A stretch of 64,000 bases of DNA from Carcharhinus amblyrhynchos (taxonomy: Eukaryota). Where the stretch lies: NCBI GenBank assembly GCA_965287045.1, contig OZ336885.1, forward strand, positions 61,566,001 through 61,630,000, in the 5' to 3' direction. This document shows positions 4,861-63,164 of this stretch, one piece after another. The notes below the pieces were generated by a model that was not told where the DNA came from, searched no databases, and saw only the letters and a program-made list of their open reading frames with translations. Within the stretch, counting starts at the first letter, position 1, and the number at the start of each line of letters is the position of its first letter. The position numbers and the translations under genes were made by a program.

Positions 4861-4869
4861 TCGAAGGGC

Positions 4870-6959: not shown

Positions 6960-7000
6960 CGTTATGAAATATTTATTCATTCAAATTTCCAGAAAGTATT
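6960..7000 (-). pseudogene. Degenerate 36-nt-class exon (41 nt) with in-frame TGA, (E)YFLEI*
   Basis: gccacag|AATACTTTCTGGAAATTTGAATG...ATAACG|gtgaga; GAAATTTGAATG resembles AAAATATGCATG of exon 15053-15088. Confidence 0.4.
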
Positions 7001-7832: not shown

Positions 7833-7859
7833 CAGCGAGCTTTGATTTCAGCTCATCTC
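7833..7859 (-). CDS. 27-nt microexon (G)DELKSKLA
   Basis: tgtttcacag|GAGATGAGCTGAAATCAAAGCTCGCTG|gtatta. Confidence 0.8.
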
Positions 7860-10800
7860 CTGTGAAACATAAATTAAAATTTTAAGATGCAAGAAAATAA
7901 AGGAATCTCCAAAATGTAATTCTCAAAAATCCGTTTATTGGGGTCACTTTCTGAGCAAGGCCGAACTTTGGTCGACCCGGCGCTCTCTGCCACGTTAAGT
8001 AATTCGCCTTCGCTAGCTTAAAACACGAAATGGGTGATTTATTTGACCTGTTGGTGCTGCACTCGTCTTTTTTTTTATATTTTCTTCACTCGAAGACAGT
8101 GGAACCGAAAATGGTTCAGGATGTAACAAGGGTGGTCAAAACTCTATTATTTTCAACTGTTAGTACAGGCTCATAATAAGGCGAATATTACTGTCGATTC
8201 TCCTCTCAGCATTTATTTGCTCTGAAGAAACTGTTCCCTTGATAGAAGTCGCTACTGAGTAAAATTGATTTTTTGATTTGCAATGGAATCATTGCATCAT
8301 CCATGAAATTACTTCACAGTTGCCTTTCTGGTGCCAGAGACATATACGTCTCTGAGCGGTTGCAGGACATCCTTAAGGGGGAGGGCGAGCAGCCGGGCGT
8401 CATTGTACATATTGGTTCCAACGATGTAAGTAGGAAAAGTGATGAGGTTCTGAATAGTGAATATAGAGAGCTAGACAAAAGGCTGAAGTCGAGAATCTCA
8501 AATGCAGTAATTTCTGGATTATTTTCGGTACTGCCTGCTGGTGAAAAAGGGAATAGGAAGATTAGGCAGATGAATAACTGGCTTGAGATCTGGTGCAGTA
8601 GGCAGGGATTTAGATTTTTGGATCACTGGGAACTTTTTCTGGGGAAGAAGTGATCTGTTTATGAGGGACGGGTTACACCTGAACTGGAGGGGGCAAACAT
8701 CCTGGTAGGGAGATTTGCTGGAGAACTTGGGAGGTCTTAAACTCGTTTGGCAGGGGCGTGGGTTCCAAAGCAGTAGGGAGACAGAAGAGAAGATTGAGGA
8801 TAGCACAGATGTTAAAGAGAGCACATTAAGTATTAAAGGTCTTGTCACTAATCCTAGTACAGCCAGAGCAGGCAAAAGCAAAACAGACAGCAAGGTAATT
8901 CCCGAGTAAATTGCATGTATTTCAATGCAAGAGGCTTGACAGGGAAGGTAGATGTGCTCAGGGCATGGGTGGACACGTGAAACTGGGATATTATAGCAAT
9001 TACTGAAACATGACTAAGGGAGGGGCAGGACTGACAGCTCAATGTTGCAGGGTATAGATGCTGCAGGGTAGATAGAACAGGAGGTAACAGAGGAGGGGAA
9101 ATTGCACTTTTGATTAGGGAAAACATCACGGCAGTACTGAGAGGAGATATATCCGAGAATTCGGCCACTGAGTCGAAATTGATGGAACTGAGAAATAAAA
9201 AGGGAAAATCCATTTGATAGGATTGTGCTATAGGCCTCCAAATAGTGGGCGGGGAATTGATATGAAAACATGTAAGGAGATTACAGGTTGCTCCAGGCAA
9301 AACAGGGTGGTAATAGTAGAGGATTTTAACTGTCCTAATGTTGACCGGGACAACCACTCTATTAGAGGGTTGGGTGGAGGGATATTTGCTGAGTGTGTCC
9401 AGGAAGAATTTTTCATTCAGTCTGTGGATGGCCCGACTAGAGAGGGGGCAAAACTTGACCTTCTCTTGGGAAATAAGGAAGGACAAGTGACAGAAGTATT
9501 AGTGAGGTATCACTTTGGACCAGGGACCATAATTCCATTGGAGCTATAGAGAATGATAGGTCTGACCCAGAAGTTAAAGTTCTAAATTGGGACAAGGCTA
9601 ATTTTGATGGTATCAGAAAGGAACTGCCAAAAGGTAATTGAGGGTATCTGCGGGAATGAAAAAAAAAGACTGGCAAGTGGGAAGCTTTCAAACGTGTGTT
9701 AACCAGGGTTCTGGGTAAGAATATTCCTCTTAAAGTGAAAAGCAAGGCTGGCAGAAGTCGGGAACCCTGGGTGACTCGGGGTATTGAGGTCCTCGTCAAG
9801 AAGAAGGGGGAGGCACATGGCATTCAAAGGCAGTTGGGATCAAATTAATCTCTTGAACAGTGTAGGGGGTAGAGGTGTAGAGTTAAGAGAAAAGTCAGAA
9901 GAACAAAAAAGGGGCACGAGATTTTTTGGCAAATAAAGCAAAGAAGAATCCAAACAGCTTTTGCAAACACATAAACAGCAAACGAATAACAAGGGATAGA
10001 GTAGGGCCTCTGAGGAATAGATAAATTATGTGCGGATCCACAAGAGATGGGTAAGATCCTAAATGAATATTACTCGTCAGTATTTACTGTTGAGAAAGAA
10101 ATGGATGTTACGGGATTTGGGGAAATAAGTAGTGATGCCTTGAAGAGTGTAGATATTAAAGTGAAAAATAGTTTCTGGACTTGCAGGAAAGTAGATAAGT
10201 CCCCGGGACCGAATGAAGTCTATCCCAATGCATTGTGGGAGGCTAGGGAGGAAATTGCGGGGACTCTCACAAAGATGTATGAATCACCAATCGTGACTGG
10301 TGACGTGCTTGAAGATTGGAGGGTGGCAAATGTACCTTTAAAAAATGGCTTGGGAACAACTGACCAGTGAACCTTATATCAGTGGTGGTTAAGTTGTTCG
10401 ATGGTATTTTGAGAAACAGGATCTACAGCATTTAGATATGCAAGGACTGTTTAAGGACAGTGCATAAGACTTTGTGAGTGGAAAACCATGCCTCACAAAT
10501 TTGATTGAGTTTTTTGAAGGAGTAAACAAGAAGGTAGCTGAGGGCATTGTTGTTCATTTTGTTTACAGGGACTTTTGCAAGCTCTTTGGCAAGGTACCAA
10601 ATGGTAGGTTGTTGCATCTCACTGGATACATATTGAGATATCTAAATGGATACAAAATTGACTTCTTGATAGAAGGCAAAGGGTGGTTGCAGGGGGGATG
10701 TTTTCTTATTCAGACTAGAGGCCTGTCACCAGTGGTGTTCCTCAGGGATCAGTGCTGTGTCCATTGATATTTGTCATTTATATTAATGATTTGGATGACA

Positions 10801-13800
10801 ATATAGGAGGCAAGGTTAGTACCTTTGCAGATGACACCAAGATTTGTGGTGTCATGGATATTGAAGAAAGTCATTCCGATTGCAACAGGATCTTGATCAT
10901 TTGGACAACTTGGCTGACGAATGGCAGATGGAGTTTAATTTAGATAAATGCAAGGTGATGCATTTAGGCGGATTGAACTAGGGCAGGACTTACTCAGTTA
11001 ATTGTAGGGCGTTCGGGAGAGTTAGAGAACAGAGACATCTCGGATCACATGTTCATAACTCCTTGAAAGTGGAGTCAAAGGCGGACAGAGTGGTGAAGAA
11101 TGTTTGGCTTCATTGTTCAGGACATTGAATACAGAAGTTGGACATCTTGTTGAAGTTGTACAAGTCATTGAAAAGGCTACGCTTAGTGTTCTCTATACAG
11201 TTCTGTCACCCAATGAAAAAAAAATTATTAAGCTAGAAAGAATGCAGAACTAGCATGCCACCGGGACTTGATGGTTTGAATTATACGGAGCAGCGGGGTC
11301 GAGTGCAACTTTTTTTTTCTGGAGCTTATGAGGCTGAGGGCTGGTCCTATAGGAGTCTATAAAATAATGAGGGACATAGATCATCTAGATAGTCTTTTTT
11401 TGCCCTCAAAGTCAGGATAGTCTAAACCTAGAGGAGATAGGTTTAAGGTGAGAGAAGAAAGTGTACGGAAGGATATTTTTTTTCAGACAGAGGACGGTGA
11501 GTATCTGGAACAATCTGTCAGAGGTAGTAGTAGAGGCGAGTACAATTTTGCCCTTTAAAAATATTCAGATAGTTACTTTGGTATGATGACTACAGACGCA
11601 TATAAGTTAGATGCTGGCAATTGGTATAAGCTTAGTGGTTTACAAAAGGGTGGTATGGGCAAGATGGGCCAAAGGGCTTGTTTCAATGTTGTAGACCTTT
11701 ATGACTCTAGGAATCTATGACTTTATGGCACAGCGCACTGAGGAGTCGAATAGTCTACTCTTAATCTTCATAACCGTGCACTTACAAGTTAAAAAAAAAG
11801 CTCACCTAAATATTTCAAATCTTTTTTGCATTCGATGAGCTCTGTATTGTGTAAAGGAAGCGATGTAAATGTGAACTCGAAACACAATATGTTGAGTAAT
11901 TTACGCAGGTAATACTTTCAAGAACATTAAAATAGAGCATTACGCCTCAGCGGGAAATGACAACGCAACGAAGTGAAAAACAAGGACAATCCAGACAAAT
12001 GGGATATGTGGGCACAACCATAAGCAAATGATAACGAATATTCACAACAGCCACAATGAAAGAACGGAATAAAACAAAGTAAACTTGTTAAAAAGTCACC
12101 AGCAGAGATTGGGTTATAAGCAAATTAATGTTGGAAGTGTGCAAGCCTTTGGTTTCAGTTAAACGTGCCATCAGCATTGAAGGCAAGATGATATGCGGGC
12201 TTGTACTCTTGCTTGTCTAAGTTAAAAAAAGGAAGCAGAGGTGGCGATGACAGGGGAGTTCGAAAAAAAAATAGGCCTTTCACATCATTGTCGTTGTCAT
12301 TTCAATGTCCACACCTTCTCACATAGGTGTACATAATTTAGTAACTTATCTTGTCTGTGAGGGGCATTGCAGAAAATAACATTTGCGTAGGTGTATTGGT
12401 GTTTGGTATTATCTCATTCTTTTTTTCTCATTTGCTCAATCCGAGGTGAAATAAATAGGTGGTTAGCTTTGAAACATCGCACATTATGCACTACTACTGA
12501 GCAGTGCATCAGCAGCTCATTCCAGGCGCTTGCAATATTTTGAGGAAAATAAAACGGCCGGGATGCCAACAAATATCCAGTGACACCGATCACTGATATA
12601 CAATTTGTCAAAATTTCAGAATTGTGGGCATTTCAGAAATTTAATATGTATTACAGTAAAGTGGGGTTAGTAAAGCATTTTTTTTTAAATGACACTTCTT
12701 ATTGTGAATGATGCAAATGCAGCGTTAACGCAGTTTCCCAAAGGCATGGTGCGTAGAACAATTCGGTTACATAATTCAAAGTTAATTTCGCAGACATAAA
12801 AAAAATGACAATAGAAAGAAAAATGAAACCAGTCTGTTTTTTGGACATTTCAGAATGGGCAACAAACATTGATTCCGCCAACAGTGCCCACTTTGCATGA
12901 TACAATAGGGAAAACAAATGCTACTGAAAATGTAGTACAAATATATTGCATAAGTTGTTTAGCATAAGACTCATCTTCTGGGATAAAGCTGTGTGGAAAA
13001 AAAATAGAGTTCTTCAAGGAAATAGAAATTTCACGTTCATCGGGCGGCACAACTGACAGAAAACTCCATGAACACACGTTTACTTTCGGCCTCGGTTGGC
13101 TGCGTGTCTGGAGTTTGCACATTCCACTCGTATTTGCATGTGTTCCTCGAGGCATTTCGGCATTTTACCACAGCCAACATATTAAAAAAAAATGGGGAAT
13201 TGATCCGTTTGCCCATTTTAGTGCTACTATCTACAGATCAAATTCAGTAGTCATGGTCATTATGCGGGATTAAGGGCATTTTCCTATCTGAATTAAAGGT
13301 GACAAAAACATGAATTTCTTCAGCAGCAACAGTGATATGCAAACCAGACGATTGCAAGTTGCTTCGGATATTAGATTAAATAGCAATAATAATTTTACAA
13401 AGTAACTTGCCAGACCAAACGAAAACTTCATAATTACCTTCTTCCGTGGATTTCTTTTTCTCTTCTGTTCGCGGGCGTTTCAATCAAAATTACAACATCA
13501 ACTTAAAGTTGTACACCATGACATATGGCCCCAGATGCGACTGAGTTTCATGAGCAAGTAATTAAAAAAAATCTTTTGCTACATATAGTGATTTTTACTG
13601 TTTTCTATTCCGTGCATCGCAACTGATTGAGATTATAATAGCCCTGTGAGGACAAAAGCGAAGATTCGCCACTATTCCATCAAAAGTTAAGATCTAAATT
13701 CCGCAGATTGACCGAGAGTTAAATTATCTCGAGTATATAAAGTTATTGTGTCAGTCAAGTTGACTTTTCAGAAAAAAAACATAAATCCACTGATCGGCAG

Positions 13801-16800
13801 AAGAAAACAATCCATTGACTTAAGATTGTACATAAATCATCGAGGGGTTATGAAAGCAAACAATTTGTCCTAGATCAGACAAGCAATGGCTCATTAAGAC
13901 GCATTTATTTAATCTTTAAGCTTTGGAAACAATGAAAAGTTCGAATATATTTCTGTCAAGATGATTTATTTATTCAGTAAAAGGGACACGTGGTTCTCTG
14001 TATTGATCTTCCAAGTCAAAGTGAAATTTTGCAGGGGGAATTGCATGAACATTATACATTCCTCCAGTTTGCGTTGAAAATTTGAAGATGCATGTGTCAT
14101 ATCCTAAGCAAAGTCAAGGACATTTTGTCAAATAATGTGAGTCATTACGCAGGACCTTTTTTTTGCTTCCTTGTTTAACCCGCGATGCTTCGTTGTTTGG
14201 CATACTCGAAGGAAATGAAGTCAGGGATATTGTTAATATTAGGAGGAAAATGCATAAATTAACAATAACAACGGCATTATAATAAAACATAGCAAGCTCA
14301 ATATTTAACACGTAAGCAATTACGTTACGTTAAAAAATCACCGTTTTTACTGTTGAATATCACAGAAAACACAAGAGTAAAAATCAAACTGTTTTAATTG
14401 TATTTTAATTTGTATTCAAGTTTTCTTATTTACTATCAATTTGGAATATCTAGAATGCATGTATTATTATCTTTGTAGCTGCAAGTCCTGTTCACTTAAA
14501 TATAACTTTTTTTTATTGCTGATGCCGATTAAATCTGATTATAAATACTACATTTTTATTATTTTATATATTTTTTCTTATTATTATCGCTAACACTAGC
14601 GCCCAGAACTAGAAACTGAATGCCCAGGAAAGTTTGTTTTAAATTACCTTTTCACTTCACCGGAAAGAAAGACTTGTCTGACGCCCTGTGTTCACATACC
14701 GACGTGGGAGTAGGGATGACTTCAGCTCTTTGAGTCTTATCTGAAACTGAAAGCTTGTCTTGTATCTCTGAATATAAAACTAGAGCTGCTTGTCTGAATA
14801 AAACTCAAATGTCCATTCATGCCTTATCAGTAGTGCGAACTCACAGACCAATGCTGTTTGCGCTGCGTGGGGCGTCTCCAAAATAATAACTTAATGTGTA
14901 TCTCTCCTCTGATATGGCGCAGAAAACTAAGAGAAATTAGTTTGAACAACTGAATGTTTGTTTTGCTCGTGATGCTCATTTCATATTATATAACAATCAT
15001 TTTGTATAAAGCGGAGTGTACTTTTTTGAAGGGACATGGATGCCTGACTTACCATTATCCTTTGAAAACAGCATGCATATTTTGAATTCTGTGGGTGCAA
15101 AAGTAAAATATTTTGAAGATTCCGTTTGGATATCTGAGCAGAATGTTCAACTGCGGAGTTAACAACACAACGGATGCCTCCATCTGCTTTCTGAAGAAAT
15201 AATGACATCTAAAAGATTTATACAGACGCATAAATAAAGTTGCATGTGCTATTCTTGTTATTTACGCGCCCTAGCGCTGAATTTTCGACGTGGAACTAAA
15301 AAGGAAAGTCAGATGTTCACCGCACCTATTATCAGGAATGATGTTAGTTGAATGCAAAATAATTTATTTCGCGATACGAGGAACGTTTCCCTTTAAAAGC
15401 AGATTTAAATTTAACAGTGCCATGTTGTCTTGTGGAATGCAAATTTTGACCATAATGTTTTGTCAGCTAGCTATATAGCGCTGGCACATATAATCTATGG
15501 AAGTTCACAGTCTAAATTCATGCTTGAATCATTTCTGTCATTTCTCAGTTTTACTGATTTCAACAGTTGGCCGGAAAAATGAACCTGTCAATCTCATAAC
15601 ACCATACCATCTCAACTAAACATGTCCCTTCTGTAGAATCAGTCGGGGTCGGAATTAATACGATTGTAGGGCGTGGGAAATTGTTCTAGCAGTTTGAACA
15701 AGGCACATCATTTTGAACAGGACCAGGTACTTTGACTTGCTGAAAGGAAATCAGCTCTTAACTGATGTCATAATGGCACGCCTCCAGTTGTGATTGTTAT
15801 ACTGCTTTAAGCACCTTCCAAGCATTCCAATTAAATAAGACAACCAAGGACAGTAATTCAATGATTGTGTTACTTGACACTTCTGGTACCAAGTGAAACA
15901 TTATCAGTTACATCTCATTAATTATTCACTTTAACTCTTAAATTGCATACTAACTTTAAATTTAGCACCGACTTTAACAATTTGATTGAAAGTAGATATT
16001 ACCGAGCTCAGGAGAACCTTGGCCAAGAAATATCCTCTATAATTCTGTCTTCTCGTCTCTGATGTTTTCATCAGGTTAAAGGCCTTGCTGCCAGCGTTGG
16101 TCTCTTGGACTTATCAAGGACCCGCTTGTCTTTTATCCAGAATTCTCCAGTTGCATTCGGAAGATCCTCTGTCATCCAACTAATTATGTCACCAAAAACT
16201 GATCACATGGCTTGACCATCCAATTAAACTATTTTTGAACGACGACATGATACTTAGCTCATTTTATTTGTCCCAAACTTCAGAGCCATAAGATTCGAAG
16301 CCACGCTGTTTCGGTAAATGTAAATAACGTCCTTTATCTGGCTAACATAGGAAACTTCAGATCATAGCTCCCAGTCAGACCCTCTTTACGACCTGCGTTT
16401 GTTTTAAATCCATAAATTTTCAAAAAATTCCGGCATTTTCTTTCTCAGCCTGAATAGGCATTTTAAAGCCACTATTGAAATTATTGTTGTTGTCATTGTT
16501 TCAGCCTGTATTTTTTTCTGACCACACGATGCAATCCATTGAATATTGACAAGAACATCACATCTTGTGTGATAATCAAATTCAACGATCTTGCATACGC
16601 ATTCGTTTTACTTTTTTGTCTTGTGACAAATCACCAAAATGTAAATAGATAAAATTGTTTCACATTGCATAGAATGGTGAGCACACTGTTGGGAAATTTC
16701 ATAAAATTCCAGCAGAATATTTTGTTTTCTTTGATTATTTTCTAACAGAGTTTCAAGAATGCAGATGTTCGAATAGTTTATTATGATCATCAATTTTGCA

Positions 16801-46800: not shown

Positions 46801-49098
46801 AGTCACTGCATGTATTAATGTTCCAATCAATTAAATAAAAAAAACAAAGAGACCCGGTTAGGGTAGTTGCGTTTGACACAATGGTTCGATACAGAATGTG
46901 TGGCTGTTGTTTTCAGTGCTTCCTAACAGTTGAGATAATAAGTTCCAATACTATATTGTCCATTAATTGCATTACATAAAACAACAAACCTCTGTACCCG
47001 CCTTGTTGTGCGGTCATGATCTGATTCCATGTTTCTTGTTTGTGCAATCCAAGGCAAGTAAAGAGTTGTTCGCTATGAATTATGAGAAATCAAATGATTA
47101 TGCTGAACAAGGAATCAGTATCTAATTCCAGAATGCATCCTCAATGTCTGAGGAAATTATAGTTTCAATTCAGATCATAGTTGTTGTGGCAACCATTGAG
47201 AATCAAGCAGATCATACTGCGATGCAGAAACAAATCAGATTTTTTTTTTAATTTCAGTACAGTGCCCATATCAATATCAGTGGAGTCTAGTATTAAGTTA
47301 GTAAGCATGCTGGCAGTCCACATATTGGCATTTATTGTCGCTGAAAACGAAAAGTATCACAATAAATTACCTTCTTCCTTCGATTTCAATTTCTCTTCTG
47401 TGTAAACGCATCCATTAATTCAATGCACACTTCCATTATTGGAGAGCAATTATAACTTCAACGCTAATTTTGGTGTGATTCTCTGCTTGCCAATTCATCC
47501 ATAAGTTATATTCCAATTCCATGTGCGTTGTTTTTCCATGTTAACATTTTGCATATTTCACGTGATTCAGTGCGTAGCCGGCTTGGAGAGACATAGTGCA
47601 GAATTGCTACTAATGCAGCAAGGGCATTTTTGAACATAGTAGCCGAGAATTCGCTTGAATCCAAATCAGTATGCAGTGTGAATTTTGATCCTAATTAATT
47701 CTTCATGAAAATTGAAATATGTGATCCGCCAGGTAGCATTAAATGATTTTCACTGCGATGCAAATATATAAAAAAAATAGACGTATTTGTCTGTTTCGAA
47801 TAGTTAGGCTAACATAAGTACATTCAATACACACTGTATAGTTCAGCATTTGTAAGCAATATGCATTACACAGTATGGAGAACAGACAACATCGATAAAC
47901 TGATTTCTTTCGGAAAACCCGTCGTCTGACGTCATATTGATGAGTGATGTAACTGAGTACAGATTTTCCACCTTCTACCTCAGACTTGGAGAGTTTAGAG
48001 TTGTTGAACATGAACGTTAATGATACGTTGTATTAGAAATGCATCATGTGCAGCACGTTGCTATTTTCTTTTCATTATTATCGCACATTTTCAGTTATAA
48101 TAACTTCCATTTCAATCGAGCAATGTAGGCCTTACCCAAATCTTTCAACTGTTGTTTGCATGAGTTTTGCTCTGGAATGAGATAATGGGAACTATTACTG
48201 CTTTAATATTAAGCGAACCAACTTTGGAAATATGAATTATTTCAAGAGTAACTTCACACTACGCTTGGAATAGCTGTTCAATGTTTGTTTATAAGTAACA
48301 CAGATTTGAAACATTGATGCTGATCACGTGCCTTTATTTCCCCTGTCGATTCGGCTAAAAGCGCAAACGGATTACTTGTATATGTTGGTTGAATTGTTGG
48401 CAATTTTCATAATTAAAAGAAAAGTAACACATCCCTGTCATTGTTTATGGTAATTGAGGCTATAATGATGAGAACCAATTCGATACCCTAAATATGCCCT
48501 ATTCCCAGAGTTTGTTGTTAAAACTCTTTCCAATTCATCCCACCGATCGCCTGGTCGTCATTCAACATCCCAAATTGTGCGGTAGGATCGTGTCCACTTT
48601 CAGATCTATAGTGTTGAATAAAAAGCCTACAAATACAAATGCTAGTCCAGGAGAGACATTTATATACACAATTTCCCACCATGAATATTGACAACAGTGA
48701 CTTGTTGTTATTCGCATGAGAAAATTGTAACATTCCGACATTTCTTGCCAACGAAGAGGCAAAGTGGATCAGACAGAACTTTATTTCATTTTTATTTCGC
48801 AAGCAGATAATCATTGTGTCAAATATGCGTTTCAATTTCGACTAATTTGTGTTTCTGCCGACATCAACTTGTTCTATAAGTAGTCCCCATATTTTTGCAC
48901 CTTGAGTGCCCACATTGCAGTTCCTCAAATTTCCTCTGATTTGACTTCCGATCCGTGCAGCCCTACCTACGACACCGAACCTCACAAGTTTGACCCCGAA
49001 ACCCCTTCACTTGATAGGCATGCTAAACGACACACCGGTACAAAAACTCCACCTCCAACCTCACCCCCCTCCACCACCCCACCCCCCCGCCGCCCGAC

Positions 49099-49154
<56 letters not shown>

Positions 49155-55100: not shown

Positions 55101-58100
55101 CACTTGCAGTGCATTGGAGTACAGACAACATCGCCAAACTCAAAATATTTTTTTCTTTCGAAAACCCATCATGTGACGTCGTAAAGGTGGATGATGAAAC
55201 TGAGTACAGATTTTCCACTACCGATATGAAACTTGGAATGTTTACATTTCGTTAACTAGAAAGGTAATGATATTTTGTGTCAGCATAGAATATAAGCTCA
55301 ACATACGCCACACATTGCATTTTCTTTTATTTGTTGTCACATACTTGCAGCTATAAGAAATTGTTTCCTGTTCAATTGTGCAATGTGGAACTCACCCAAA
55401 TCTTTCAAATCTTTTTTACATGCCATGAACTCTGGAATGGGATAATGAGAACTATTAATATGTTACTATTAGGCGAGTTAACTTTGGAATTGTGAATTCA
55501 TTCAAGCATTATAGAATAGCGTAATCAAACTTCGTCTGGAATACCCGCTTAATGGTTGTTTCCATGCAGCACACGTTTGAAACATTGATGCTGACACGTG
55601 CCTTTTTTTATCCTGTCGATTCAGCTAAAAGGGCAGACAAAATACTTGCTTGCGTTCGTTGCATTTTTCGTCATTTCCGCAATGTAAAATGGGAAACAAA
55701 TCCCGTTATTATTTACGGCGAGGCTATAACAATGAGCACCAAATCAATACCCTATTTACGCAGTATTATTTTGGTAATGCCCTTTCCAACTAAGTTCACT
55801 GTTAGCTTAATCGTTATTCAGCAGTCCAAATTGTGCAGGAGTAACGTGTCGGCGTTTATGATCTACGCTGCTGAATTACACGCCTGCAAACAGCAAGCCA
55901 ATGGAACCTAAAATTCGCAAGCAATTCGAATGTCAGCACACGAGTTGGCTGTTTCGTGAGAGACAATTATATATCCAGTTTCCCGACATGCATATCGACA
56001 ACAGTCATATGCTCTTATTCGCATGGGTAAAATAACATTCTGGCAGTTATTGCCAACGAAAAAGGCAAAATAGATTAGGCAGATCTTCATTCCATTTTTA
56101 TTTAATAAGCAGGTAATCGTTGTATGGAATATGCGTTTCAATTTCGATTCATTTGTGTTTCTGCCAACATCAAGTTCTTCTGTAAGCAGTCCTCATATTT
56201 TTCCATCTTCGATTCCTCGATTTTTCTTTGATATGACTTCCCACCGCGACGCCCTGCAGCATTGCCTCCAACACCATGCCTCATAGGTGGGACACCGAAA
56301 CTCCTCCCCTTGATTGATATGCGAAACTACACACCCGCACACATACTCCATGTGACGCCCGCTCTCGCCCTCTTCATCAGCTTGTTCTCCAATCATCGAC
56401 TTCCTCAGCAATGTAATTGGAATGATACTTCATTTTGCTATGCAAAGGAAAACAGGCGCAGTGTCAAAAAGAAAGCATCAATCTTGTCGTACGAAATAGC
56501 CTTCATACAGGGAACCAAGACATAGACAGGTATCGACAATATTCGCCACATTCTGTACTGTAAACATTGCGTTGTGTATTAATTTGTGGGACATATTCCT
56601 CACAGACTGGCCGGCATTTGTTCTCCAGCTCTCGCCACCACCACCCCCCCCACCCCCCAGAAGGTGCTAATGAAACGGCTACTTGAATCGCTGCAGTCCA
56701 TGTATTGTGGGATGACGCACAATACTGCGAGGAAGGGAATTCCGGATTTTGCACAAGATGATCCAAGCTCGCTTTATAACCGGATAATTCAAATTGCTTT
56801 TTGGCCATGTTTCTATGTTGATAGTCATAGGTTAAGTGTAATGTTTTGCTAAACCTGAGCTAAATGCAGAGGCACATAAAACTAAGTGTGCTGGTTTTAT
56901 GGCGTGCTTCACGAAGGATACGATCCAATTGGAGAATAATAAATGCAACCCAACACCCCAGGTACTGAATGCGGGCAAGCCAATATCACACTGAAAGACA
57001 ATATTATTGCGAGGACATTTATGTATCTTATAATCATATATACTCTACGTTTCTGGTGGGCAGAATCTACTGAACATGAATACCTTTCTTCTGTTGCCAA
57101 GCAACACTGGATGCTGAACAGTGAGGTCTGAAATATTTCGACCGACTGGAACCCGTGTGACACTCCTCAGTCCGTGAGGAAAACCTTATGTAGGCCTTTC
57201 AACTGTGTTATTAGCTTGAAGGTGTGAATTTATATCCATCAAACTGCCATTTTTAGCCATCTTCAACGCAACGACATGCTGATAAATTGGTCCCATTAAG
57301 TCAAACTATGGTCCCACGGAACGCAAGTCCGGCCTGATACCTCACCCGATCAAACCCTGCTCTATCTTCAGTCGTTGTTTGCATTCTCGCAGGGTGTGTT
57401 CGAGAATAAAACTCGGTCTATTTCATCAGTTCGAAGTAGTTCAGACGTATTTGAAAGAGCGATGTTTTGTGTAGCAACCGCCGTGTTAGCTCTCTACATA
57501 GTATAATTTCATTCACAGCAAAATCAATATTATATTAGTGTTCTGAAACCCATGATGTTGCATTTTATTAGCCTAATTGACTTCCCCCGCCCCCGTCATC
57601 TGGCTGGCAACTCCACTGTATGCTCAAAAAACGGACAGAACATTGATTTAGTGATTGCTCAAGCGAATGATTATCCCAATTGTTTTCTTCCTCAATGGAA
57701 TGCATTTATAATCGGATAAGGCTAGGTGATAACATTTCGGAATTTTTATCAATTCATTCTGTTCCCTGCTTTGAACGAATGGTTGCAAAAACTGATTTTC
57801 ATAAGGTTACATGAAAATTGGCATGTTCCATTTAAGTTGTGCATTTTGATGATGTTTCTGTATGTTTTGATGCCAGTCATGCCAGGCGCTTGCAGATGTG
57901 GCACCGTCATTTTTTTTCAGTCGGATAGATTCTGTTGCGTTAGCAGAGTCAAAAGCTAAAACAAAACCGTGACACACACATTAGTTGCAAAATGTACATG
58001 GTCATAGCTTTCATTCAAATCCTTGGGTGTTCAGTTACACCTTGTCAGCTAAACTGCAAATAAAGTATTTAAATCTGCGGCAGGTTTCAGGGGAATGGTG

Positions 58101-61100
58101 TAGAAGCTGCGGGTTCCTTCATTGAACGAATTGCTTTTCTTTATATAATTAAAGTTCGAAATCTGGTTCCCTGATCTCAAGTCATTTCATAACTTATGGT
58201 CAATCATGCACTGTTATAGTTAGATAAACTGTCCATGTAGTATTTGGAAATCAATACTATCTATTATTTACTAAACTGGATCTGCAATGATTTTTTTTGG
58301 CATCGTCCAGCCCTGGAAGGCGGTAGAACAGAATGCTATAGCTGCCATTGTGTTATTGACAGCATATTGGCGAGTACGACACACTTGCGTATCAGGACAA
58401 GCACGTCATTAGCCCATGTGAAATTGCGATCAATAAGGTACACCAAAGTTATTGATGAATTTACGTCTCAACACATCATTAATACCTCTATGTATTTTTG
58501 CTCGCTAAGAGTTACACATTTCCCACATTTAACCACAAATTCTGTTGAAATACAGTCAATGTGTTGATCATTAAGCATTTGCATGATTCCCCTGTTTCCC
58601 TTCAAGACAAATTAGACGATATGGGGATCAATTAAAAACAGCTATCTCTCACAAAGAAAATCATTTTTATTTTCGAATTCCTGAAAGTTTCACGAAACCC
58701 TTTGCCTTTCACAACCGTTATTATTCACAGCACGTTTTCTATTGTAAATGCTGTAATTCACGTAGAACTATTCAAGTACGTTTTCTAAAACGCCCTACTT
58801 GTTATGGGTGCTTAGCTTTAACTTCACTGGAACAATGCAAGAAATTTGTGAACCAGAAAAATTCAAACGGCGGAATGAGTTTTTTTTTGCTGGACCTGGA
58901 CTTAACCGTTTGCTAAGACGTGAATGAAGAAACATTATTCCCTTCAGCGTTACCTTCAACTTTTCTGCTGTAAAGCACAAGATACTAGCTTGGGATTCAA
59001 AACGAATGTTTCTCTCCAAGGTCTTCGTGCAGAAAAGTAACTGTTCTCTGACTGTAAGATCATAAGGTGTTGATCTTACAGTCAGACGTTACAGGTTCTG
59101 CTCCAATACCTTGTTGCATTTGGTGCATTTACTGTTTGGCCATACTATCATGGCTAATAACATTCTCAACCCCTCTCTCCTTTCTTTTCCCCGTAATCTT
59201 TAGCCCCATTACCAAGCAGCAAACAGTCTACAATTGCATAAATGTGCGGGAATACCCGACATCCATTTTCTTCCGAGTTAATGAATTCCATAGTTTAACC
59301 ACCCAGAAGACATTCCTCCTCATATCGGTTCTAAAGTTTTGTCCTTTATACTGAGGCTCTGTCCTCGATTCTCGAATTTCCTACAAATGGAAGGAATTTC
59401 CGCACATCAAATCTATCCAGGAGTTTTAATATTCGTTAAGTTGCAATGCTATCCCGCCATCCTTGTAACTCTAGAGTGCTCAAACACTCCTCATACATCA
59501 AGGTTACATCAGCACATACGGGACCCAAAATTGTTCTGAATCCACCAAGTGTCGTTTTCCCAAAGCCTTATATGTCCTTCGCAGTGCATCGAGTCAGATT
59601 TTTATGTTACATTCCTCTCAAAATGAATGTCAGCACTGAACTTGCTTTCTAAACTAGGACGTTGCTCAATCTGCAAGTCACCGTTAAGAAAATACTGGAA
59701 ATTAATTTCCAAGTCACTTTGACTTTCTGATTTCTGAATTTTGTCCAGATTTGGAAGTTTTCATCTTTTCTTCTGTCAAGCAGAATAATTGGCTTTGAGA
59801 AAACAGACGTTGTCATTGTCACGAGTGCTCATCTCGGAATGTTTTTCTTACATCGTATATCATATGGATTGGGGACAACACATGTGGAAGTAGATGAAGT
59901 CAATGAAACGTCTGCAGGCTAAGTCAAGTGGCCTTAAAAATGTCACGTAAGTTTATATGTTAAGCGCTTGGGAGAGCATTCTTCCATTTCATACACCCGC
60001 TTAGATAGAACAGAACATAAATACAACGGGATCATATTTCAAAACGGCAGGGGTAAATAATGTCTTAAGTGTGATTGTCGCTCTCGATGTTCAGAAGGAT
60101 ACATTGATCTTGGAAGAATTGCAGTGCTGAGTCAAAGTTACATTATGATTTTAGTTTTCACCACGAGATTTAAAATCACTTGAGGATGTAACTTTAATAG
60201 GATAAGCAATGCAAGTTTTCAATTTAAAATATATGCCAGCTAGTTTTGTTCGAATAAAATAATTCACACTGATATGCCAAACTAAAGCACCACCAATGAA
60301 TAGAAAGGCGTTTTAACAAAAATGACGACGATTTACGTGAATACTTTAACGGCTCCTTACGTGCATTCTGTTCAGCATTTCAGCAAATAAACTGTTTCGT
60401 TCAATATCTTCACACTTTTAGTCACACTGTATTGGGAACAGTGATACGACAGAACAACACATCTTCCCTTTCTGTGTTACTGACCTGCCGCGAGGTAATT
60501 TGAATTTTAACAAGGAAAATGAAAAGTAACATGTTGAATAAATAACAATCAACTGTATTCTTTCTATTGGGGTTGTTGCTTGAATTAGATTTTTTCCTCC
60601 ACTCATGAAACTTTCCTCGTTCTCACCGACATAATGCCATGGAATCAATTCCGTAACGTAAGTGATTGGATTAACAGGAAGACATATCAGTATTATGTTC
60701 CGTCATGTGCCAATTTCACATATGGACTCTACATCTCACGCGGATTTCATCTTGGTAGATATTTACACTTGCATATTTTTAATAAATTTTACAATCAGGT
60801 ACATCACACTTAAATTTGACATTTGGTGCGGACCATTCATGAAGACACATTTACCCAACTCTTCCCTTTCTCCGCACTGTTAACATTTACATTTATAGAA
60901 ATGCAATGATTGCCAAAAGTGAATCTCAGTTACTAGCCTATTGAATCTGTTTGTATATGAAGTACTTGTTTGTCACAAATCAGGTTAAATTTCAAAACTA
61001 GGTTAAAATCAGGTTAAATTTCAAACTAGCACTAAACTAGCACTAAATATAAAAAAGGACAGTGAGAGTTTTATAAATATGTAAAAAGGAGGAGGCTGGC

Positions 61101-63132
61101 TAGAGTGAATGTTGGACCCTTAGAGGACGAGAGGGGGGATTTAGTGATGGGGGATGAGGGAATGGCTGAGGCCTTAATTTTTTTTTGCCTCGGTCTTCAC
61201 GGAGGAGGACACAAATAGTTTGCCGGGTTCTAAAGATAGAAGGATGGTAGGGTTTGAGGGCCTGAATGCGATACTGTCACTGGAGAGGTAGTGCTTGATC
61301 GACTAGCGGGACTGATGGTGGACAAGTCCCCAGGACTGGATGGAATGCATCCCAGCGTTCTGAAGGAAAAGGCAGAGGTGATAGTAGATGCCTTAGTGAT
61401 TACGTACCAAACTTCGCTGGATTCTGGGGAAGTGCCGGAAGATTGGAAAACGGCTAATGTTACGCCATTGTTTAAAGAAAGGCAGCAGGAAAAAAGGCAG
61501 GGAGTTATGGGCCGGTTAGCTTAACGACTGTTGTTGGAAAAATGCTTACATCCGTCATCAAAGAAGAAATAGCGAGGCACCTTGAGAAGAATTGTTTGAT
61601 CGAGCAGACGCAGCACGGATTTGTTAAGGGGAAGTCGTATGTGACAAATTTATTGGAATTCTATGAGGATGTGACTAGTGCGGTAGACAGAGGCGAACCG
61701 GTGGATGTGGTGTTTCTCGATTTTCAGAAGCTGTTTGATAAGGTGCCGCACAAAAGGTTGCTTCAGAAGGTTAGGGGGCATGGAGTTGGGCGTAATGCGT
61801 TATCGTGGATAAAGGATTGGTTGTCTAATAGGAGGCAGAGAGTTGGTGTCAATGGGTGCTATTCTGCTTGGCGGTTAGTGACTGGTGGAGTGCCCCAGGG
61901 ATCGGTGCTGTGGCCTCAAATATTTACCTACTATATCGATGATCTGGAGTAGGGGGCTGATTGTAGGATGTCGAAATTTGCTGATGACACGAAGATAGGT
62001 GGAAAAGCAAATTGTGCGGAGGGTATGTAAAGTCTGCAGAGGGATCTAGATAGGCTGAGCGAGTGGGCGAGGATCTGGCAGATGGAGTACAATGTTAGCA
62101 AGTGTGAGGTTATCCACTTTGGCAGGAAGAATATTCGGAGGGATTACTATTTAAAGGGCGAAAAGCTGCAGCATGCTACGGTGCAGAGTGACCTGGGGAT
62201 CCTTGTGCATGCGTCGCAAAAACCCAGTCTGCAGTTGCAGCAGGTGATCAAGAGGGCGAAGGGGATGCCGGCCTTTATAGCGAGGGGGATAGAATATAAA
62301 AACAGGGAGGTCTTGCTGCGACTGTACAGGGCACTGGTGAGGCTGCAGCTGGAGTACTGTGTGCAGTTTTGGTCGCCGCACATGGCAAGGATATTTTGGC
62401 CTTGGAGGGAGTGAAGAGGAGGTTCACCAGGCTGATACCGGAGATGAGGGGGTTGGACTATGAAGAGAGGCTGAATAGACTGGGTCTGTTCTTGTTGGTG
62501 TTTAGAAGGTTGAGGGGGGATCTTATAGAGACGTATAAGATAATGAAGGTAATGGATAGGGTAGACGAAGAGCGATTCTTCCCGCTCAGAAAGGACAGCA
62601 GGACTCGAGGGCACAGCCTCAAGATAAGGGGGGGGGGGGGGCAGTTTAGAACGGAATTGAGGAGGAACTTCTTCACTCAAAGGGTGGTGAATCTTTGGAA
62701 TTCTCTGCCCGTTGAAGTGATGGAGTGTACCTCGCTAAATATATTTAAGACACAGGTAGATAGGTTTTTGGTAGGCAAGGGAATTAAGGGTTATGGGGAG
62801 AAAGCGGGAAAGTGGAACTGAGCAACTTCAGATCAGCCATGATCTTACTGAATGGCGGGGCAGGCTCGAAGGGCTAGATGGCCTACTCCTGCTCCTACTT
62901 CTTATGTTCTTATGTTCAAAAGAAGTCCAAGTAATGTGTTTTTCTGAAGAACTTGAAGGAAAACAAGTTTCTTAAACACATGGCATAAATCCTTCTCCAT
63001 TGAAAAAAATCTCTGCAAATTCTGCGGTATAACACTCCTGAAATATAATCAGTTACATTAGCAACATTCACTTTCCAGCGCATGCTTTGTGCTTACCTTG
63101 CTCATTCGAAGCTTTCACGACACTGTCAAGTT
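7833..63132 (-). CDS. Partial multi-microexon gene: 21 intact 36/27-nt exons encoding ~222 aa of Cys-containing coiled-coil repeat; 5' part outside the window
   Basis: All 21 exons have an AG acceptor, a GT donor and phase 1/1. Joined translation is stop-free: (E)LDSVVKASNEQ EFMACKKDLKDL EDKLKSKEE ELIECKKDLKDL EETLSATRK EQNSCKQQLKDL EEKLKSKEE EHIECKNNLKDL EEKLKATQK ELIACKKTLKDL EEKLKSKEE ERIECEKDFKDL EEKIMLKEE KLQICKRALEDF AEKLKENEK ERTTRKKSLKDL EEKLEAKEK EFKICMLFSKDN EEKKKSTEE ELIECKKDLKYL GDELKSKLA. Exon joining is inferred; there is no RNA evidence. Confidence 0.85.
8310..11720 (+). mobile_element. Long decayed CR1 LINE (ORF1 SGNH-esterase part, ORF2, 3' tail)
   Basis: ORF1-like VIVHIGSNDV...WCSRQGFRFLDHW; ORF2 CYRPPN, KVDKSPGP, CLTNLIEFFE, YINDLD..FADDTKI; tail tatgactctaggaatctatgac. 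Confidence 0.95.
11806..11841 (-). CDS. 36-nt microexon (E)LIECKKDLKYL
   Basis: acaatacag|AGCTCATCGAATGCAAAAAAGATTTGAAATATTTAG|gtgagc. Confidence 0.88.
13090..13170 (+). mobile_element. V-SINE core fragment
   Basis: gtgtctggagtttgcacattcc...tttgcatgtgttcctc, similar to the SINE at 17.7 kb. Confidence 0.55.
13438..13464 (-). CDS. 27-nt microexon (E)EKKKSTEE
   Basis: cgcgaacag|AAGAGAAAAAGAAATCCACGGAAGAAG|gtaatt; poor pyrimidine tract. Confidence 0.78.
15053..15088 (-). CDS. 36-nt microexon (E)FKICMLFSKDN
   Basis: tgcacccacag|AATTCAAAATATGCATGCTGTTTTCAAAGGATAATG|gtaagt. Confidence 0.82.
17364..17390 (-). CDS. 27-nt microexon (E)EKLEAKEK
   Basis: gatgtgcag|AGGAAAAGCTAGAAGCAAAAGAAAAAG|gtattt. 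Confidence 0.85.
17615..17940 (+). mobile_element. HE1-like tRNA-derived V-SINE
   Basis: tRNA-like head gtggcacactggttagcaccgctgcctcacag, core tttcctccgggagctccggtttcttcccac, CR1-type tail ggccaaatgaccttcttctgcactgtagg. Confidence 0.85.
18035..18070 (-). CDS. 36-nt microexon (E)RTTRKKSLKDL
   Basis: ctcattgcag|AACGAACGACACGGAAAAAATCTCTAAAAGATTTAG|gtaaga; the Cys position is Arg here. Confidence 0.85.
18810..19470 (-). mobile_element. Solo LTR (~660 bp)
   Basis: Termini tattag...ataaca (degenerate TG..CA inverted ends); 4-bp direct flank CAGG at 18806-18809 and 19471-19474; minus-strand AATAAA at 18873-18878. Confidence 0.7.
20265..20600 (-). mobile_element. Deu-type (tRNA-head) SINE remnant
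   Basis: aattcaaattccacca..gccgtgg head and gtgggtgttgctggcttagcattcattgctcattcctag tail; related tails at ~36045, ~49355, ~56580; family assignment from recalled consensus. Confidence 0.55.
20874..20900 (-). CDS. 27-nt microexon (A)EKLKENEK
   Basis: tgttctgcag|CAGAAAAGCTAAAAGAAAACGAAAAGG|gtatta; tandem CAGCAG acceptor. Confidence 0.82.
21264..21299 (-). CDS. 36-nt microexon (K/E)LQICKRALEDF
   Basis: cctcacccaag|AGCTCCAAATATGCAAAAGAGCTTTGGAAGATTTTG|gtgaga; the AAG acceptor is weaker. Confidence 0.8.
22510..24310 (+). mobile_element. Decayed CR1 RT/3' portion, interrupted at 23455-23668
   Basis: KAFDKIPHGRLL, YINDLD, KFVDDRKVG, LNADKCKVMHFG, RPYLEYC, LERVQNRFTK. Confidence 0.93.
23455..23668. 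mobile_element. Palindromic non-autonomous element with two decayed hammerhead-like cores and a 13-bp TSD
   Basis: aggacttactcag (23442-23454) and aggatttactcag (23669-23681); central inverted repeat ttcgagtccagatga...tcatctagactcgaa. Confidence 0.75.
25477..25511 (-). pseudogene. 36-nt-class exon that is only 35 nt, (x)FSECKKALKK
   Basis: tgatttaag|AGTTCTCAGAATGCAAAAAAGCTTTGAAAAAAAAG|gtgaga; one base short, with the likely loss inside an A8 run. Confidence 0.75.
25790..28600 (+). mobile_element. Decayed CR1 ORF2
   Basis: FFASVFTVED, ISPGPD, KILESITK, YLDFQK, GWQPLTSGV, DFIETYRML; tail ctaatcctgctcctatg. Confidence 0.92.
27643..27920 (-). mobile_element. Younger CR1 3' fragment nested antisense in the older CR1
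   Basis: cataagaacataagaaataggagcaggagtaggcc is close to the reverse complement of the tail at 62880-62915. Confidence 0.9.
29188..29214 (-). CDS. 27-nt microexon (E)EKIMLKEE
   Basis: ctcttttacag|AAGAAAAGATCATGTTGAAGGAAGAGA|gtaagt. Confidence 0.88.
29497..29830 (-). mobile_element. Penelope-like element terminal region with a minimal hammerhead-like core
   Basis: Minus strand CTGACGA-AAGGGCAGCGCTCC-GAAAGCTA at 29584-29612; cacaacaccaggttaaag terminus. Confidence 0.65.
29850..30022 (+). mobile_element. CR1 3' tail fragment
   Basis: gggccaaagggtctgtactgtgttgtattctactgttctatgttcta. Confidence 0.7.
32286..32321 (-). CDS. 36-nt microexon (E)RIECEKDFKDL
   Basis: ttcgcactccag|AGCGCATCGAATGCGAAAAGGACTTCAAAGATTTAG|gtgagt. 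Confidence 0.9.
   Translation of the reverse strand, partial: SASNAKRTSKI
34032..34058 (-). CDS. 27-nt microexon (E)EKLKSKEE
   Basis: gatttgacag|AAGAGAAATTGAAATCAAAGGAAGAAG|gtaacc. Confidence 0.88.
34829..34864 (-). CDS. 36-nt microexon (E)LIACKKTLKDL
   Basis: cccatttcag|AGCTCATCGCTTGCAAAAAAACATTGAAAGACTTGG|gtgagt. Confidence 0.9.
38438..38464 (-). CDS. 27-nt microexon (E)EKLKATQK
   Basis: tgccttacag|AAGAAAAGTTGAAGGCAACGCAAAAGG|gtatga. Confidence 0.85.
38550..39460 (-). mobile_element. Decayed CR1 3' portion shared by the duplicated units (paralogues 50717-51270 and 59053-59755)
   Basis: Tail cataagaccataag; the paralogue translates RVVNLWNSLPQKAME. Confidence 0.85.
41715..41895 (-). mobile_element. 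CR1 3' tail fragment inserted in the ERV
   Basis: cataagaaataggagcaggagtagg...aagatcatggctgatctg, same family as 27643-27920. Confidence 0.85.
41940..42330 (-). pseudogene. env: Gamma-type retroviral Env TM remnant
   Basis: LQNR/ALDYLQSESGGACILVGIECC (immunosuppressive domain plus CX6CC, frameshifted), then hydrophobic MLVHLGIIVLVVLIILL. Confidence 0.85.
42850..43260 (-). pseudogene. Probable Gag N-terminal remnant
   Basis: Located after the leader; WLLRGTWD resembles a matrix W-P-x-x-G-T motif; purine-rich and disrupted. Confidence 0.4.
43740..43757 (-). promoter_or_regulatory. Primer-binding site, tRNA-Ser-like
   Basis: TGGTGCTGCGAGCAGGGT right after the 5' LTR; close to the complement of the vertebrate tRNA-Ser(TGA) 3' end as recalled (TGGCGCAGCGAGCAGGGT). 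Confidence 0.7.
45491..45526 (-). CDS. 36-nt microexon (E)HIECKNNLKDL
   Basis: ttcactctccag|AGCACATCGAATGCAAAAACAATTTGAAAGATTTAG|gtgaga. Confidence 0.9.
47371..47397 (-). CDS. 27-nt microexon (E)EKLKSKEE
   Basis: gtttacacag|AAGAGAAATTGAAATCGAAGGAAGAAG|gtaatt. Confidence 0.9.
48136..48171 (-). CDS. 36-nt microexon (E)QNSCKQQLKDL
   Basis: ctcattccag|AGCAAAACTCATGCAAACAACAGTTGAAAGATTTGG|gtaagg. Confidence 0.88.
49097..49152 (+). repeat. (CA)n microsatellite
   Basis: Directly visible; present in copy B only. Confidence 0.97.
50608..50634 (-). CDS. 27-nt microexon (E)ETLSATRK
   Basis: tgctttacag|AAGAAACGTTGTCGGCAACGCGAAAGG|gtatga. Confidence 0.8.
52761..52796 (-). CDS. 36-nt microexon (E)LIECKKDLKDL
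   Basis: ttcacactccag|AGCTCATCGAATGCAAAAAGGATTTGAAAGATTTAG|gtgagt. Confidence 0.9.
54626..54652 (-). CDS. 27-nt microexon (E)DKLKSKEE
   Basis: gttttcacag|AAGATAAATTGAAATCGAAAGAAGAAG|gtaatt. Confidence 0.9.
55396..55431 (-). CDS. 36-nt microexon (E)FMACKKDLKDL
   Basis: cccattccag|AGTTCATGGCATGTAAAAAAGATTTGAAAGATTTGG|gtgagt. Confidence 0.9.
58941..58967 (-). pseudogene. 27-nt-class exon with a dead donor, (A)EKLKVTLK
   Basis: Positional paralogue of 38438-38464 and 50608-50634; acceptor intact; donor reads G|gaataa instead of G|gtatga. Confidence 0.75.
59746..59772 (-). pseudogene. 27-nt-class exon truncated by a CR1 junction, (E)EKMK...
   Basis: tgcttgacag|AAGAAAAGATGAAAA then runs into CR1-derived sequence; no GT at +27. 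Confidence 0.55.
61040..62916 (+). mobile_element. Relatively young 5'-truncated CR1 (RT plus 3' tail)
   Basis: VDKSPGLDG, VPEDWKTANVTPLFK, QHGFVKGKS, LDFQKLFDKVPH, GVPQGSVL, FADDTKIGG, RRLRGDLIETYK; tail cttatgttcttatgttc; only a few stops and frameshifts. Confidence 0.97.
63097..63132 (-). CDS. 36-nt microexon (E)LDSVVKASNEQ
   Basis: ttgcttacag|AACTTGACAGTGTCGTGAAAGCTTCGAATGAGCAAG|gtaagc; divergent member, same length and phase. Confidence 0.75.
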
Positions 63133-63164
63133 CTGTAAGCAATTAGGACACAGCAGTTTGCAGT

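What the first reader, a model, noticed from the sequence alone, without database searches (positions are those of the whole stretch)
7833..63132. Hidden gene built from alternating 36-nt and 27-nt microexons encoding a long three-heptad coiled-coil repeat
SEEN: 21 minus-strand exons with AG/GT ends, all phase 1/1, eleven of 36 nt and ten of 27 nt. They alternate strictly from 55431 down to 7833 once one broken exon is skipped, and join into 666 nt without a stop. 36+27=63 nt=21 aa=three heptads, with L at repeat positions 2/9/16 (a) and C/L/K at 5/12/19 (d). Only about 1% of the 55-kb span is coding, so ORF finders miss it. KNOWN: chicken BG and butyrophilin genes encode cytoplasmic heptads in tiny exons (mostly 21 nt), and the CD23 stalk uses 21-aa repeats with one exon each. 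INFERENCE: this is an elasmobranch coiled-coil stalk or tail in which each 21-mer is split 12+9 across two exons. I do not recognise this architecture from any described gene.
Basis: partly seen in the sequence, partly recalled or inferred. Interest (0 to 1): 0.92.

Follow-up and report, generated by a model that had tools for sequence, protein, structure and literature searches.

The report
Giant microexon-pair coiled-coil gene array
The window is the middle tenth of a hidden vertebrate gene over 650 kb long, in which more than 120 tiny 36- and 27-base exons appear to encode a very long coiled-coil rod whose family, ends and expression are still unidentified.

Summary
Real, and much larger than reported. 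All 21 exons are present and join to 666 nt in one open frame. The alternation is not strict: five more intact-looking exons and about 11 decayed copies lie in the window, and alternation over the array is 70-74%. The array runs at least 652 kb on contig C16, with 170 copies of which 130 look intact, and neither end was reached. Motif hits at 62.6, 63.4, 64.0 and 66.1-66.2 Mb suggest a gene cluster. The 36+27 pair is a 21-residue, three-heptad unit: Leu at a, Cys/Leu/Lys at d, mostly attractive g-e' charges. It grew by tandem segmental duplication and loses single exons, under moderate purifying selection (dN/dS 0.52). No IgC, C-type lectin, B30.2, C1q, fibrinogen or PLVAP exon was found near it, though the IgV and B30.2 searches were incomplete. 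There is no RNA evidence, and the protein-database searches had no power. Best reading: a roughly 190-nm parallel coiled-coil rod, possibly disulfide-laddered, that evolves like chicken BG tails but is not shown to belong to any known family.

The parts
63097..63132 (-). 36-nt exon, intact, divergent class
60337..60372 (-). 36-nt copy, acceptor lost
59746..59772 (-). weak 27-nt copy, donor lost
58941..58967 (-). 27-nt copy, donor lost (duplicate unit 1)
58276..58312 (-). 36-class copy, 37 nt by alignment, decayed (scored intact, reclassified)
55598..55624 (-). 27-nt copy with in-frame stop
55396..55431 (-). 36-nt exon, intact, Cys at d
54626..54652 (-). 27-nt exon, intact
52761..52796 (-). 36-nt exon, intact, Cys at d
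52117..52143 (-). 27-nt exon, intact; last of duplicate unit 1
50608..50634 (-). 27-nt exon, intact; first of unit 2, makes a 27-27 neighbour pair
49926..49961 (-). 36-nt copy, both splice sites lost
48328..48354 (-). 27-nt candidate exon, intact but weak; its two duplicates are decayed
48136..48171 (-). 36-nt exon, intact, Cys at d
47371..47397 (-). 27-nt exon, intact
45491..45526 (-). 36-nt exon, intact, Cys at d
44868..44894 (-). 27-nt copy, donor lost
40224..40259 (-). 36-nt copy with in-frame stop
38438..38464 (-). 27-nt exon, intact; first of unit 3
37782..37817 (-).
35020..35045 (-). 27-class copy, 26 nt, decayed
34829..34864 (-). 36-nt exon, intact, Cys at d
34032..34058 (-). 27-nt exon, intact
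32286..32321 (-). 36-nt exon, intact, Cys at d
31664..31690 (-). 27-nt exon, intact; last of unit 3
29188..29214 (-). 27-nt exon, intact; second 27-27 neighbour pair
25477..25511 (-). 36-class copy, 35 nt, decayed
21264..21299 (-). 36-nt exon, intact, Cys at d
20874..20900 (-). 27-nt exon, intact
19787..19822 (-).
18035..18070 (-). 36-nt exon, intact
17364..17390 (-). 27-nt exon, intact
15053..15088 (-). 36-nt exon, intact, divergent
13438..13464 (-). 27-nt exon, intact
11806..11841 (-). 36-nt exon, intact, Cys at d
7833..7859 (-). 27-nt exon, intact
434..460 (-). weak 27-nt copy, donor lost
31000..59750 (.). three tandem segmental duplicates of about 7-8 kb, about 70% identical including introns, each with seven exon positions 27-36-27-36-27-36-27
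1..64000 (-). the window lies inside the array, which continues to at least window coordinate +355,802 (5') and -296,311 (3')

Best explanation
The exons belong to one very large minus-strand gene (or a few tandem ones) whose product is mostly a parallel homo-oligomeric coiled-coil rod. SHOWN: a 36-nt and a 27-nt phase-1/1 exon together give 21 residues with Leu at the a positions, Cys/Leu, Leu and Lys at the d positions, and mostly attractive g-e' charge pairs; the array grew by tandem duplication of multi-exon segments and sheds single exons; splice sites, frame and codons have been under moderate purifying selection. INFERRED: about 1,290 residues make a rod of roughly 190 nm (rise per residue recalled); because every exon is symmetric, skipping or decay changes rod length without a frameshift, and single losses put local breaks in the heptad register. 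LESS CERTAIN: the Cys at every third d position in the central 460 kb cross-links the chains, which would place the rod in the secretory pathway or outside the cell as a membrane-anchored or secreted spacer or tether (tetherin/PLVAP-like in working, not in locus), in a fast-evolving lineage-specific family of several genes on C16. Confidence by step: coding coiled-coil array under selection at least until recently about 0.9; still expressed about 0.75; extracellular or luminal disulfide-linked rod about 0.4.
For: Length excess on one strand with an independent splice model. Stops in 2 of 125 AG/GT-ended copies in the phase-1 frame against 96 and 49 in the other frames (partly circular, as the profile was trained on open copies). 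Period 3.5 is the top peak in 5 of 5 longest alternating runs. Hydrophobic fraction 0.70-0.85 at positions 2, 5, 9, 12, 16. g1-e6 attractive 39, repulsive 5 of 60; g15-e20 attractive 22, repulsive 4 of 62. dN/dS 0.52 in 10 disjoint intact duplicate pairs, Fisher p=0.046; 0.85 in 3 pairs with a broken member. By flank alignment alone 15 of 21 positions in the in-window triplicate are intact against 11.1 expected under neutrality, p=0.03. Cys at d in 26 of 51 central 36-nt exons, 0 of 10 in the outer parts, where 9 of 10 have Leu/Ile/Val. A second DNA data set about 97.5% identical covers the laid 16 kb in 30 of 30 bins. Motif hits cluster on C16 61.4-66.2 Mb: 20 of 22 and 17 of 18 hits, controls 1 and 0.
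Against: No RNA evidence either way. Neither end was reached, so no signal peptide, membrane anchor or head domain is shown. 40 of 170 copies are broken, alternation is only 70-74%, and breakage is not clearly paired to keep register (p=0.03, 0.09, 0.46 at three thresholds; adjacent broken pairs not enriched). The full join has no single dominant 3.5 peak. Exon identity between duplicates (80%) is only a little above intron identity (74%), and three of six exon classes are near intron level; dN against intron divergence gives p=0.06. N-glycosylation sequons number 2 against 5.5 in shuffles, no support for an extracellular site. g8-e13 pairs are 2 attractive, 6 repulsive of 44. A same-strand provirus lies in one intron and could interrupt a single long transcript.
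Confidence: 0.45

Rival explanations
1. A BG/butyrophilin-like type I receptor family: IgV head and transmembrane exon lie 5' of the fetched region and the array is an enormous cytoplasmic heptad tail acting on the cytoskeleton, as proposed for chicken BG10/zipper protein.
For: Chicken BG genes are a multigene cluster whose tails are 13-36 small heptad exons with alternative splicing (PMC4046983 passages). The C16 locus is also a cluster with many small heptad exons. Low sequon count fits a cytosolic site. IgV on C16 is not excluded (150 of 1793 candidates scored).
Against: BG exons are 21 or 24 nt; neither length is enriched here. The genome's butyrophilin-type IgC and B30.2 exons lie on C46, C53, C9 and other contigs, none on C16. 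No IgV motif or Pfam hit in 664 kb. The conserved Cys is unexplained.
Confidence: 0.22
2. An intracellular or germ-cell structural coiled-coil protein of a lineage-specific family that expands by exon-pair duplication, in the manner of primate ANKRD30A/ANKRD36/NBPF; Cys may cross-link late, as in sperm-tail fibres (recalled).
For: Long internal coding duplications are listed for ANKRD30A, ANKRD36 and NBPF (PMC4079513 tables). No receptor domain found in 250 long ORFs. Relaxed dN/dS and exon turnover.
Against: No ankyrin or other domain in 664 kb; the exon-pair layout of those genes is recalled, not read; no sequence link tested.
Confidence: 0.15
3. The gene, or much of the array, is a recently dead or mostly skipped relic; the selection signal dates from before its loss.
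For: 40 of 170 copies broken, highest in the 100-260 kb 5' part; same-strand provirus in an intron; exon conservation only modestly above introns.
Against: Symmetric exons can be lost singly in a live gene; 130 of 170 copies remain intact over 650 kb; 18 consecutive intact alternating exons give a clean 3.5 period.
Confidence: 0.1
4. The neck of a type II C-type lectin (CD23/CD209-like) with the lectin exons 3' of the fetched region.
For: 21-residue repeat as in the CD23 stalk (recalled; one search found no paper to confirm). The only PDB match to the 12-residue profile was CLEC4M at E=0.91, not significant.
Against: No lectin match on C16 among 146 at E<=10, although split-exon lectins elsewhere were detected (61 of 211 candidates unscored), despite about four arrays on C16.
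Confidence: 0.08

Closest known systems
Chicken BG genes (incl. BG10/zipper protein)
   Same: Multigene cluster; long heptad coiled coil encoded by many tiny exons with variable number and alternative splicing (PMC4046983 passages).
   Different: BG uses one heptad per 21-nt (sometimes 24-nt) exon and 13-36 exons; here a 36+27 pair makes three heptads, with at least 123 intact exons over 652 kb and Cys in the core. No IgV or transmembrane exon found.
Butyrophilins (IgV-IgC-TM-heptads-B30.2)
   Same: Variable number of heptad repeats; present in cartilaginous fish (PMC12841164 passages).
   Different: This genome's IgC and B30.2 matches are on other contigs; butyrophilins have only a few heptads.
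Tetherin / TMCC(aT) / PLVAP
   Same: Proteins that are mostly a coiled coil, with poor sequence conservation, recognised by topology and position (PMC10617486 passages). Inter-chain disulfides in the coil are recalled.
   Different: The family is defined by its place between CILP2 and PLVAP; the one PLVAP match is on C26, not C16. No anchor shown; far longer; microexon pairs.
CD23 (FCER2) and CD209/CLEC4M necks
   Same: Repeat-built coiled-coil neck; 21-residue unit in CD23 (recalled).
   Different: One exon per repeat and three or four repeats (recalled); no lectin domain detected on C16.
ANKRD30A/ANKRD36 and NBPF
   Same: Growth by intragenic tandem duplication; repeat units split over two exons (recalled).
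   Different: Different repeat, not three heptads; primate expansions (recalled); no ankyrin or Olduvai domain here.

Membership tests
Chicken BG-like | Many small exons encoding heptads | tested here: met
   130 intact of 170 copies, 3.5 period
Chicken BG-like | Exons of 21 or 24 nt, one heptad each | tested here: not met
   Only 27 (45) and 36 (42) stand out, next length 6; BG lengths
Chicken BG-like | N-terminal IgV and transmembrane exon | tested here: inconclusive
   None in 664 kb; 5' end not reached; 150 of 1793 V-set candidates scored
Butyrophilin | IgC domain of butyrophilin type | tested here: not met
   35 matches, 87 of 87 candidates scored, none on C16
Butyrophilin | C-terminal B30.2/SPRY exon | tested here: inconclusive
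   None on C16 among 150 of 376 scored; none in 664 kb; 3' end not reached
CD23/CD209-type C-type lectin | C-terminal C-type lectin domain | tested here: inconclusive
   None on C16 among 146 matches at E<=10, 150 of 211 scored; disfavoured, not excluded
CD23/CD209-type C-type lectin | One exon per neck repeat (recalled) | tested here: not met
   63-nt candidates not enriched; the repeat is split 36+27
Tetherin/TMCC(aT)/PLVAP | Position next to PLVAP | tested here: not met
   Single PV-1 match on C26, 5 of 5 scored
Tetherin/TMCC(aT)/PLVAP | N-terminal transmembrane segment, with or without GPI anchor | not testable with these tools
   Gene ends lie outside the 664 kb held
C1q-domain or fibrinogen-domain proteins | C-terminal gC1q or fibrinogen domain near the array | tested here: not met
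   C1q 64 of 64 scored, nearest C16 match 41.7 Mb; Fibrinogen_C 102 of 102 scored, C16 matches only at 3.8 Mb
ANKRD26/36-like | N-terminal ankyrin repeats | not tested
   No genome-wide search run; none in 250 ORFs of the 664 kb
Expressed protein-coding gene | Spliced transcript joining the exons | not testable with these tools
   No RNA holder listed; the one run is genomic DNA

The most novel reading that the evidence does not exclude
An undescribed family of about four giant genes spread over 5 Mb, each built from a hundred or more 27- and 36-nt exons, encoding disulfide-laddered coiled-coil rods near 200 nm long whose length and register are set by microexon skipping and by birth and death of exon pairs, unrelated to BG, butyrophilin, lectin or tetherin families and missed by genome annotation.
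Probability: 0.33. Interest if true: 0.88.

Novelty: new variant of a known kind. Interest (0 to 1): 0.74.

Why it matters
If expressed, this would be an extreme microexon gene: 0.6% coding over 650 kb with more than 120 exons of 27-36 nt, several times the 13-36 tail exons of chicken BG genes. It would show a heptad repeat held in two exons of which neither keeps register alone, which makes it a natural test of how splicing and exon turnover tune a coiled coil, and of how long runs of microexons are recognised across multi-kilobase introns. It also marks about 5 Mb of an apparently gene-empty chromosome arm as a possible lineage-specific gene cluster.

Tried and rejected
Protein-database searches with a profile of the 36-nt exon peptides found nothing, but a control showed that this profile scores even the exact in-silico product at E>1000, so both are uninformative; an existing database entry is not excluded. 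PDB search: one match at E=0.91. Sequencing runs: no RNA holder listed; the single run X1 is genomic, its joints reflect the segmental duplicates and none matches an exon junction among the 15 of 27 shown. Retrocopy search with a 36|27 junction motif: 3 hits against 2 in the control, chance level. All-against-all comparison of 10,642 ORFs of 35+ residues: in the part of the output shown (it was cut), only repeats, duplicated introns and the microexons recur. Pfam on 110 ORFs of 75+ residues in the outer 60 kb at each end and on 140 of 148 minus-strand unmasked ORFs of 105+ residues in between (8 crossing locus borders left out): only transposon and retroviral domains plus two weak chance-level hits, Tsg and DUF1363. 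Short domain-motif scan: equal on both strands. Other microexon lengths: a few single candidates only. Genome-wide family searches for V-set, lectin, SPRY, PV-1, IgC, C1q, fibrinogen: nothing near the array. Rejected: chance, assembly artefact, simple tandem repeat, strict alternation, clear paired loss of exons. Earlier scan findings: none in four look-ups. Literature searches returned no paper; others returned listings, none describing this layout by title or abstract start.

Full report
Observation. The window lies at G000:C16:61,566,001-61,630,000 in a 2.92-Gb genome. Leave-one-out scores are 22-71 bits against a maximum of 14.7 in 30 block shuffles. An 11+10 set joins to 666 nt, open in one of three frames. 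A textbook splice consensus carrying no exon information gives 59 and 59 candidates at lengths 27 and 36 over 664 kb on the minus strand, against 25.6 +/- 6.0 at other lengths and 17 and 24 on the plus strand.

Extent. With 300 kb on each side, copies run from window coordinate +355,802 to -296,311 with no end in sight. The catalogue holds 170 copies at score 11 or more: 66 intact 27-nt, 60 intact 36-nt, 4 with GC donors, 40 broken (plus-strand maxima 16 and 19, so a few low scorers may be false; one copy counted intact, 58312, was later reclassified as broken). At score 15 or more, 123 of 152 are intact and join to 1,290 residues without a stop, 0.6% of the span. Genome-wide motif searches put 20 of 22 and 17 of 18 hits on C16, with further hits at 62.60-62.65 Mb (+), 63.39-63.43 (-), 64.00 (-) and 66.14-66.23 (+); at 62.645 Mb a 36-type hit is followed about 370 nt later by a 27-type hit (controls 1 and 0). 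I read these as sister arrays, from positions and short matches only.

How it grew. The window holds three tandem segments of about 7-8 kb, about 70% identical with introns. Each has seven exon positions in strict 27-36-27-36-27-36-27 order; one of the two 27-27 neighbours arises at a duplication junction, and other breaks come from decay of single copies. The 36-to-27 intron is short (median 743 nt; 19 of 55 between 300 and 470 nt), the 27-to-36 intron longer (median 2,332 nt), pointing to a 36+27 pair as the basic unit. Alternation is 70-74% against about 50% in shuffles; whether losses are paired to keep register is unresolved (p=0.03, 0.09, 0.46).

Selection. In 10 disjoint intact duplicate pairs pN is 0.209 and pS 0.350, dN/dS 0.52 (p=0.046); against intron divergence p=0.06; in 3 pairs with a broken member 0.85. 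Both members are intact in 10 of 12 pairs against 0.28 expected, but that count favours detectable copies; the alignment-only version gives 15 of 21 against 11.1, p=0.03. Exon identity is 80% against 74% for introns, carried mainly by three of six classes. This is moderate constraint with turnover. A second DNA data set, about 97.5% identical, covers the laid 16 kb, so the region is not an assembly artefact. There is no RNA evidence and no retrocopy.

Protein. Positions 2, 9, 16 are mostly Leu, 5 is Cys or Leu, 12 Leu, 19 Lys: an a/d heptad with a polar d in every third heptad. The five longest alternating runs peak at period 3.48-3.52. Two of three g-e' pair types are mostly attractive (39 to 5; 22 to 4), the third is not (2 to 6); the first is partly fixed by the splice acceptor. 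This fits a parallel homo-oligomer; chain number cannot be told. Cys occupies d in 26 of 51 central 36-nt exons and 0 of 10 outer ones, so it spread with the central expansion. That d-position cysteines favour inter-chain disulfides is recalled. Sequons are not enriched (2 against 5.5). No structure was predicted, since the spliced product is not a contiguous window sequence.

Identity. Pfam on 250 long minus-strand ORFs found only transposon and retroviral domains. Genome-wide, no butyrophilin-type IgC (87 of 87 scored), C1q (64 of 64), fibrinogen (102 of 102) or PLVAP (5 of 5) match lies near the array; lectin (150 of 211), SPRY (150 of 376) and V-set (150 of 1793) searches showed none on C16 but were incomplete. 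The gene ends lie outside the sequence held, so the head and tail remain open. Protein-database searches had no power, so an existing automatic annotation is not excluded.

Comparison. Closest in architecture are chicken BG genes: a cluster with 13-36 tail exons of 21 or 24 nt and alternative splicing (PMC4046983, passages seen; supplements not read). Butyrophilins with variable heptad numbers occur in cartilaginous fish (PMC12841164, passages). Tetherin-like genes are defined by topology and position beside PLVAP (PMC10617486, passages). ANKRD30A, ANKRD36 and NBPF carry long intragenic duplications (PMC4079513, passages and tables); their two-exon repeat units and the CD23 stalk layout are recalled. 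It works like these repeat-built coiled coils but fails or cannot be tested for the defining features of each. Nine literature searches showed no paper on a 36+27 layout in listings and abstract starts; most subscription journals are not covered.

Verdict. A real, unusually large microexon array encoding a three-heptad repeat, probably one of several sister genes, under moderate selection. Best explanation (0.45): a long parallel coiled-coil spacer or tether, probably disulfide-linked outside the cytosol. Rivals: BG-like cytoplasmic tail 0.22, intracellular or germ-cell structural protein 0.15, relic 0.10, lectin neck 0.08. Novelty: new variant of a known kind, with about a one-in-three chance of an undescribed family.

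Noticed in passing
L023:1989-6678 (window coordinates about +186,000 to +190,700), minus strand: An endogenous retrovirus with pol (RT, RNase H, integrase) and env Pfam matches lies in an intron on the same strand as the array. Observed only.
   Followed up: no
L051:8416-8847 (window coordinate about -201,200), minus strand: A second retroviral env-like stretch (TLV_coat, E=1.7e-6) in an intron. Observed only.
   Followed up: no
window 61052-62920, 8999-11717, 22483-24266, 26500-28570, 63190-64000: Multi-copy LINE-like repeats in both orientations account for most long ORFs of the window (the LINE label is recalled).
   Followed up: partly
G000:C46 and C53: Butyrophilin-type IgC matches are each followed some 45-55 kb downstream by a SPRY match, for example C46:651,369 and 607,584. 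These long gaps may hold heptad microexons worth comparing with the C16 array.
   Followed up: no
G000:C9:103,490,007: A single 27-type exon motif match lies in a region with SPRY matches at 103.60 and 103.66 Mb; chance or a distant relative.
   Followed up: no
G000:C23:32,779,107: Best hit of the 36|27 junction motif, ending in a stop, 340 kb from a cluster of C1q matches; at control level.
   Followed up: no
G000:C132, C818, C815, C980: A dense cluster of split-exon C-type lectin matches, about one per 20-40 kb on C132.
   Followed up: no
L010:5108-6034, L027:3075-3584, L007:2664-3287: Reverse-transcriptase fragments of another repeat class and a stretch resembling a Harbinger-type transposase (label recalled); a hAT fragment at L050:3668-3916.
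   Followed up: no
window 37817 and 19822; loci at +149,455, +104,911, +82,264: A Cys-free subclass of 36-nt exons with weaker donors decays more often (1 of 3 intact in the triplicate); it may be alternatively spliced.
   Followed up: partly
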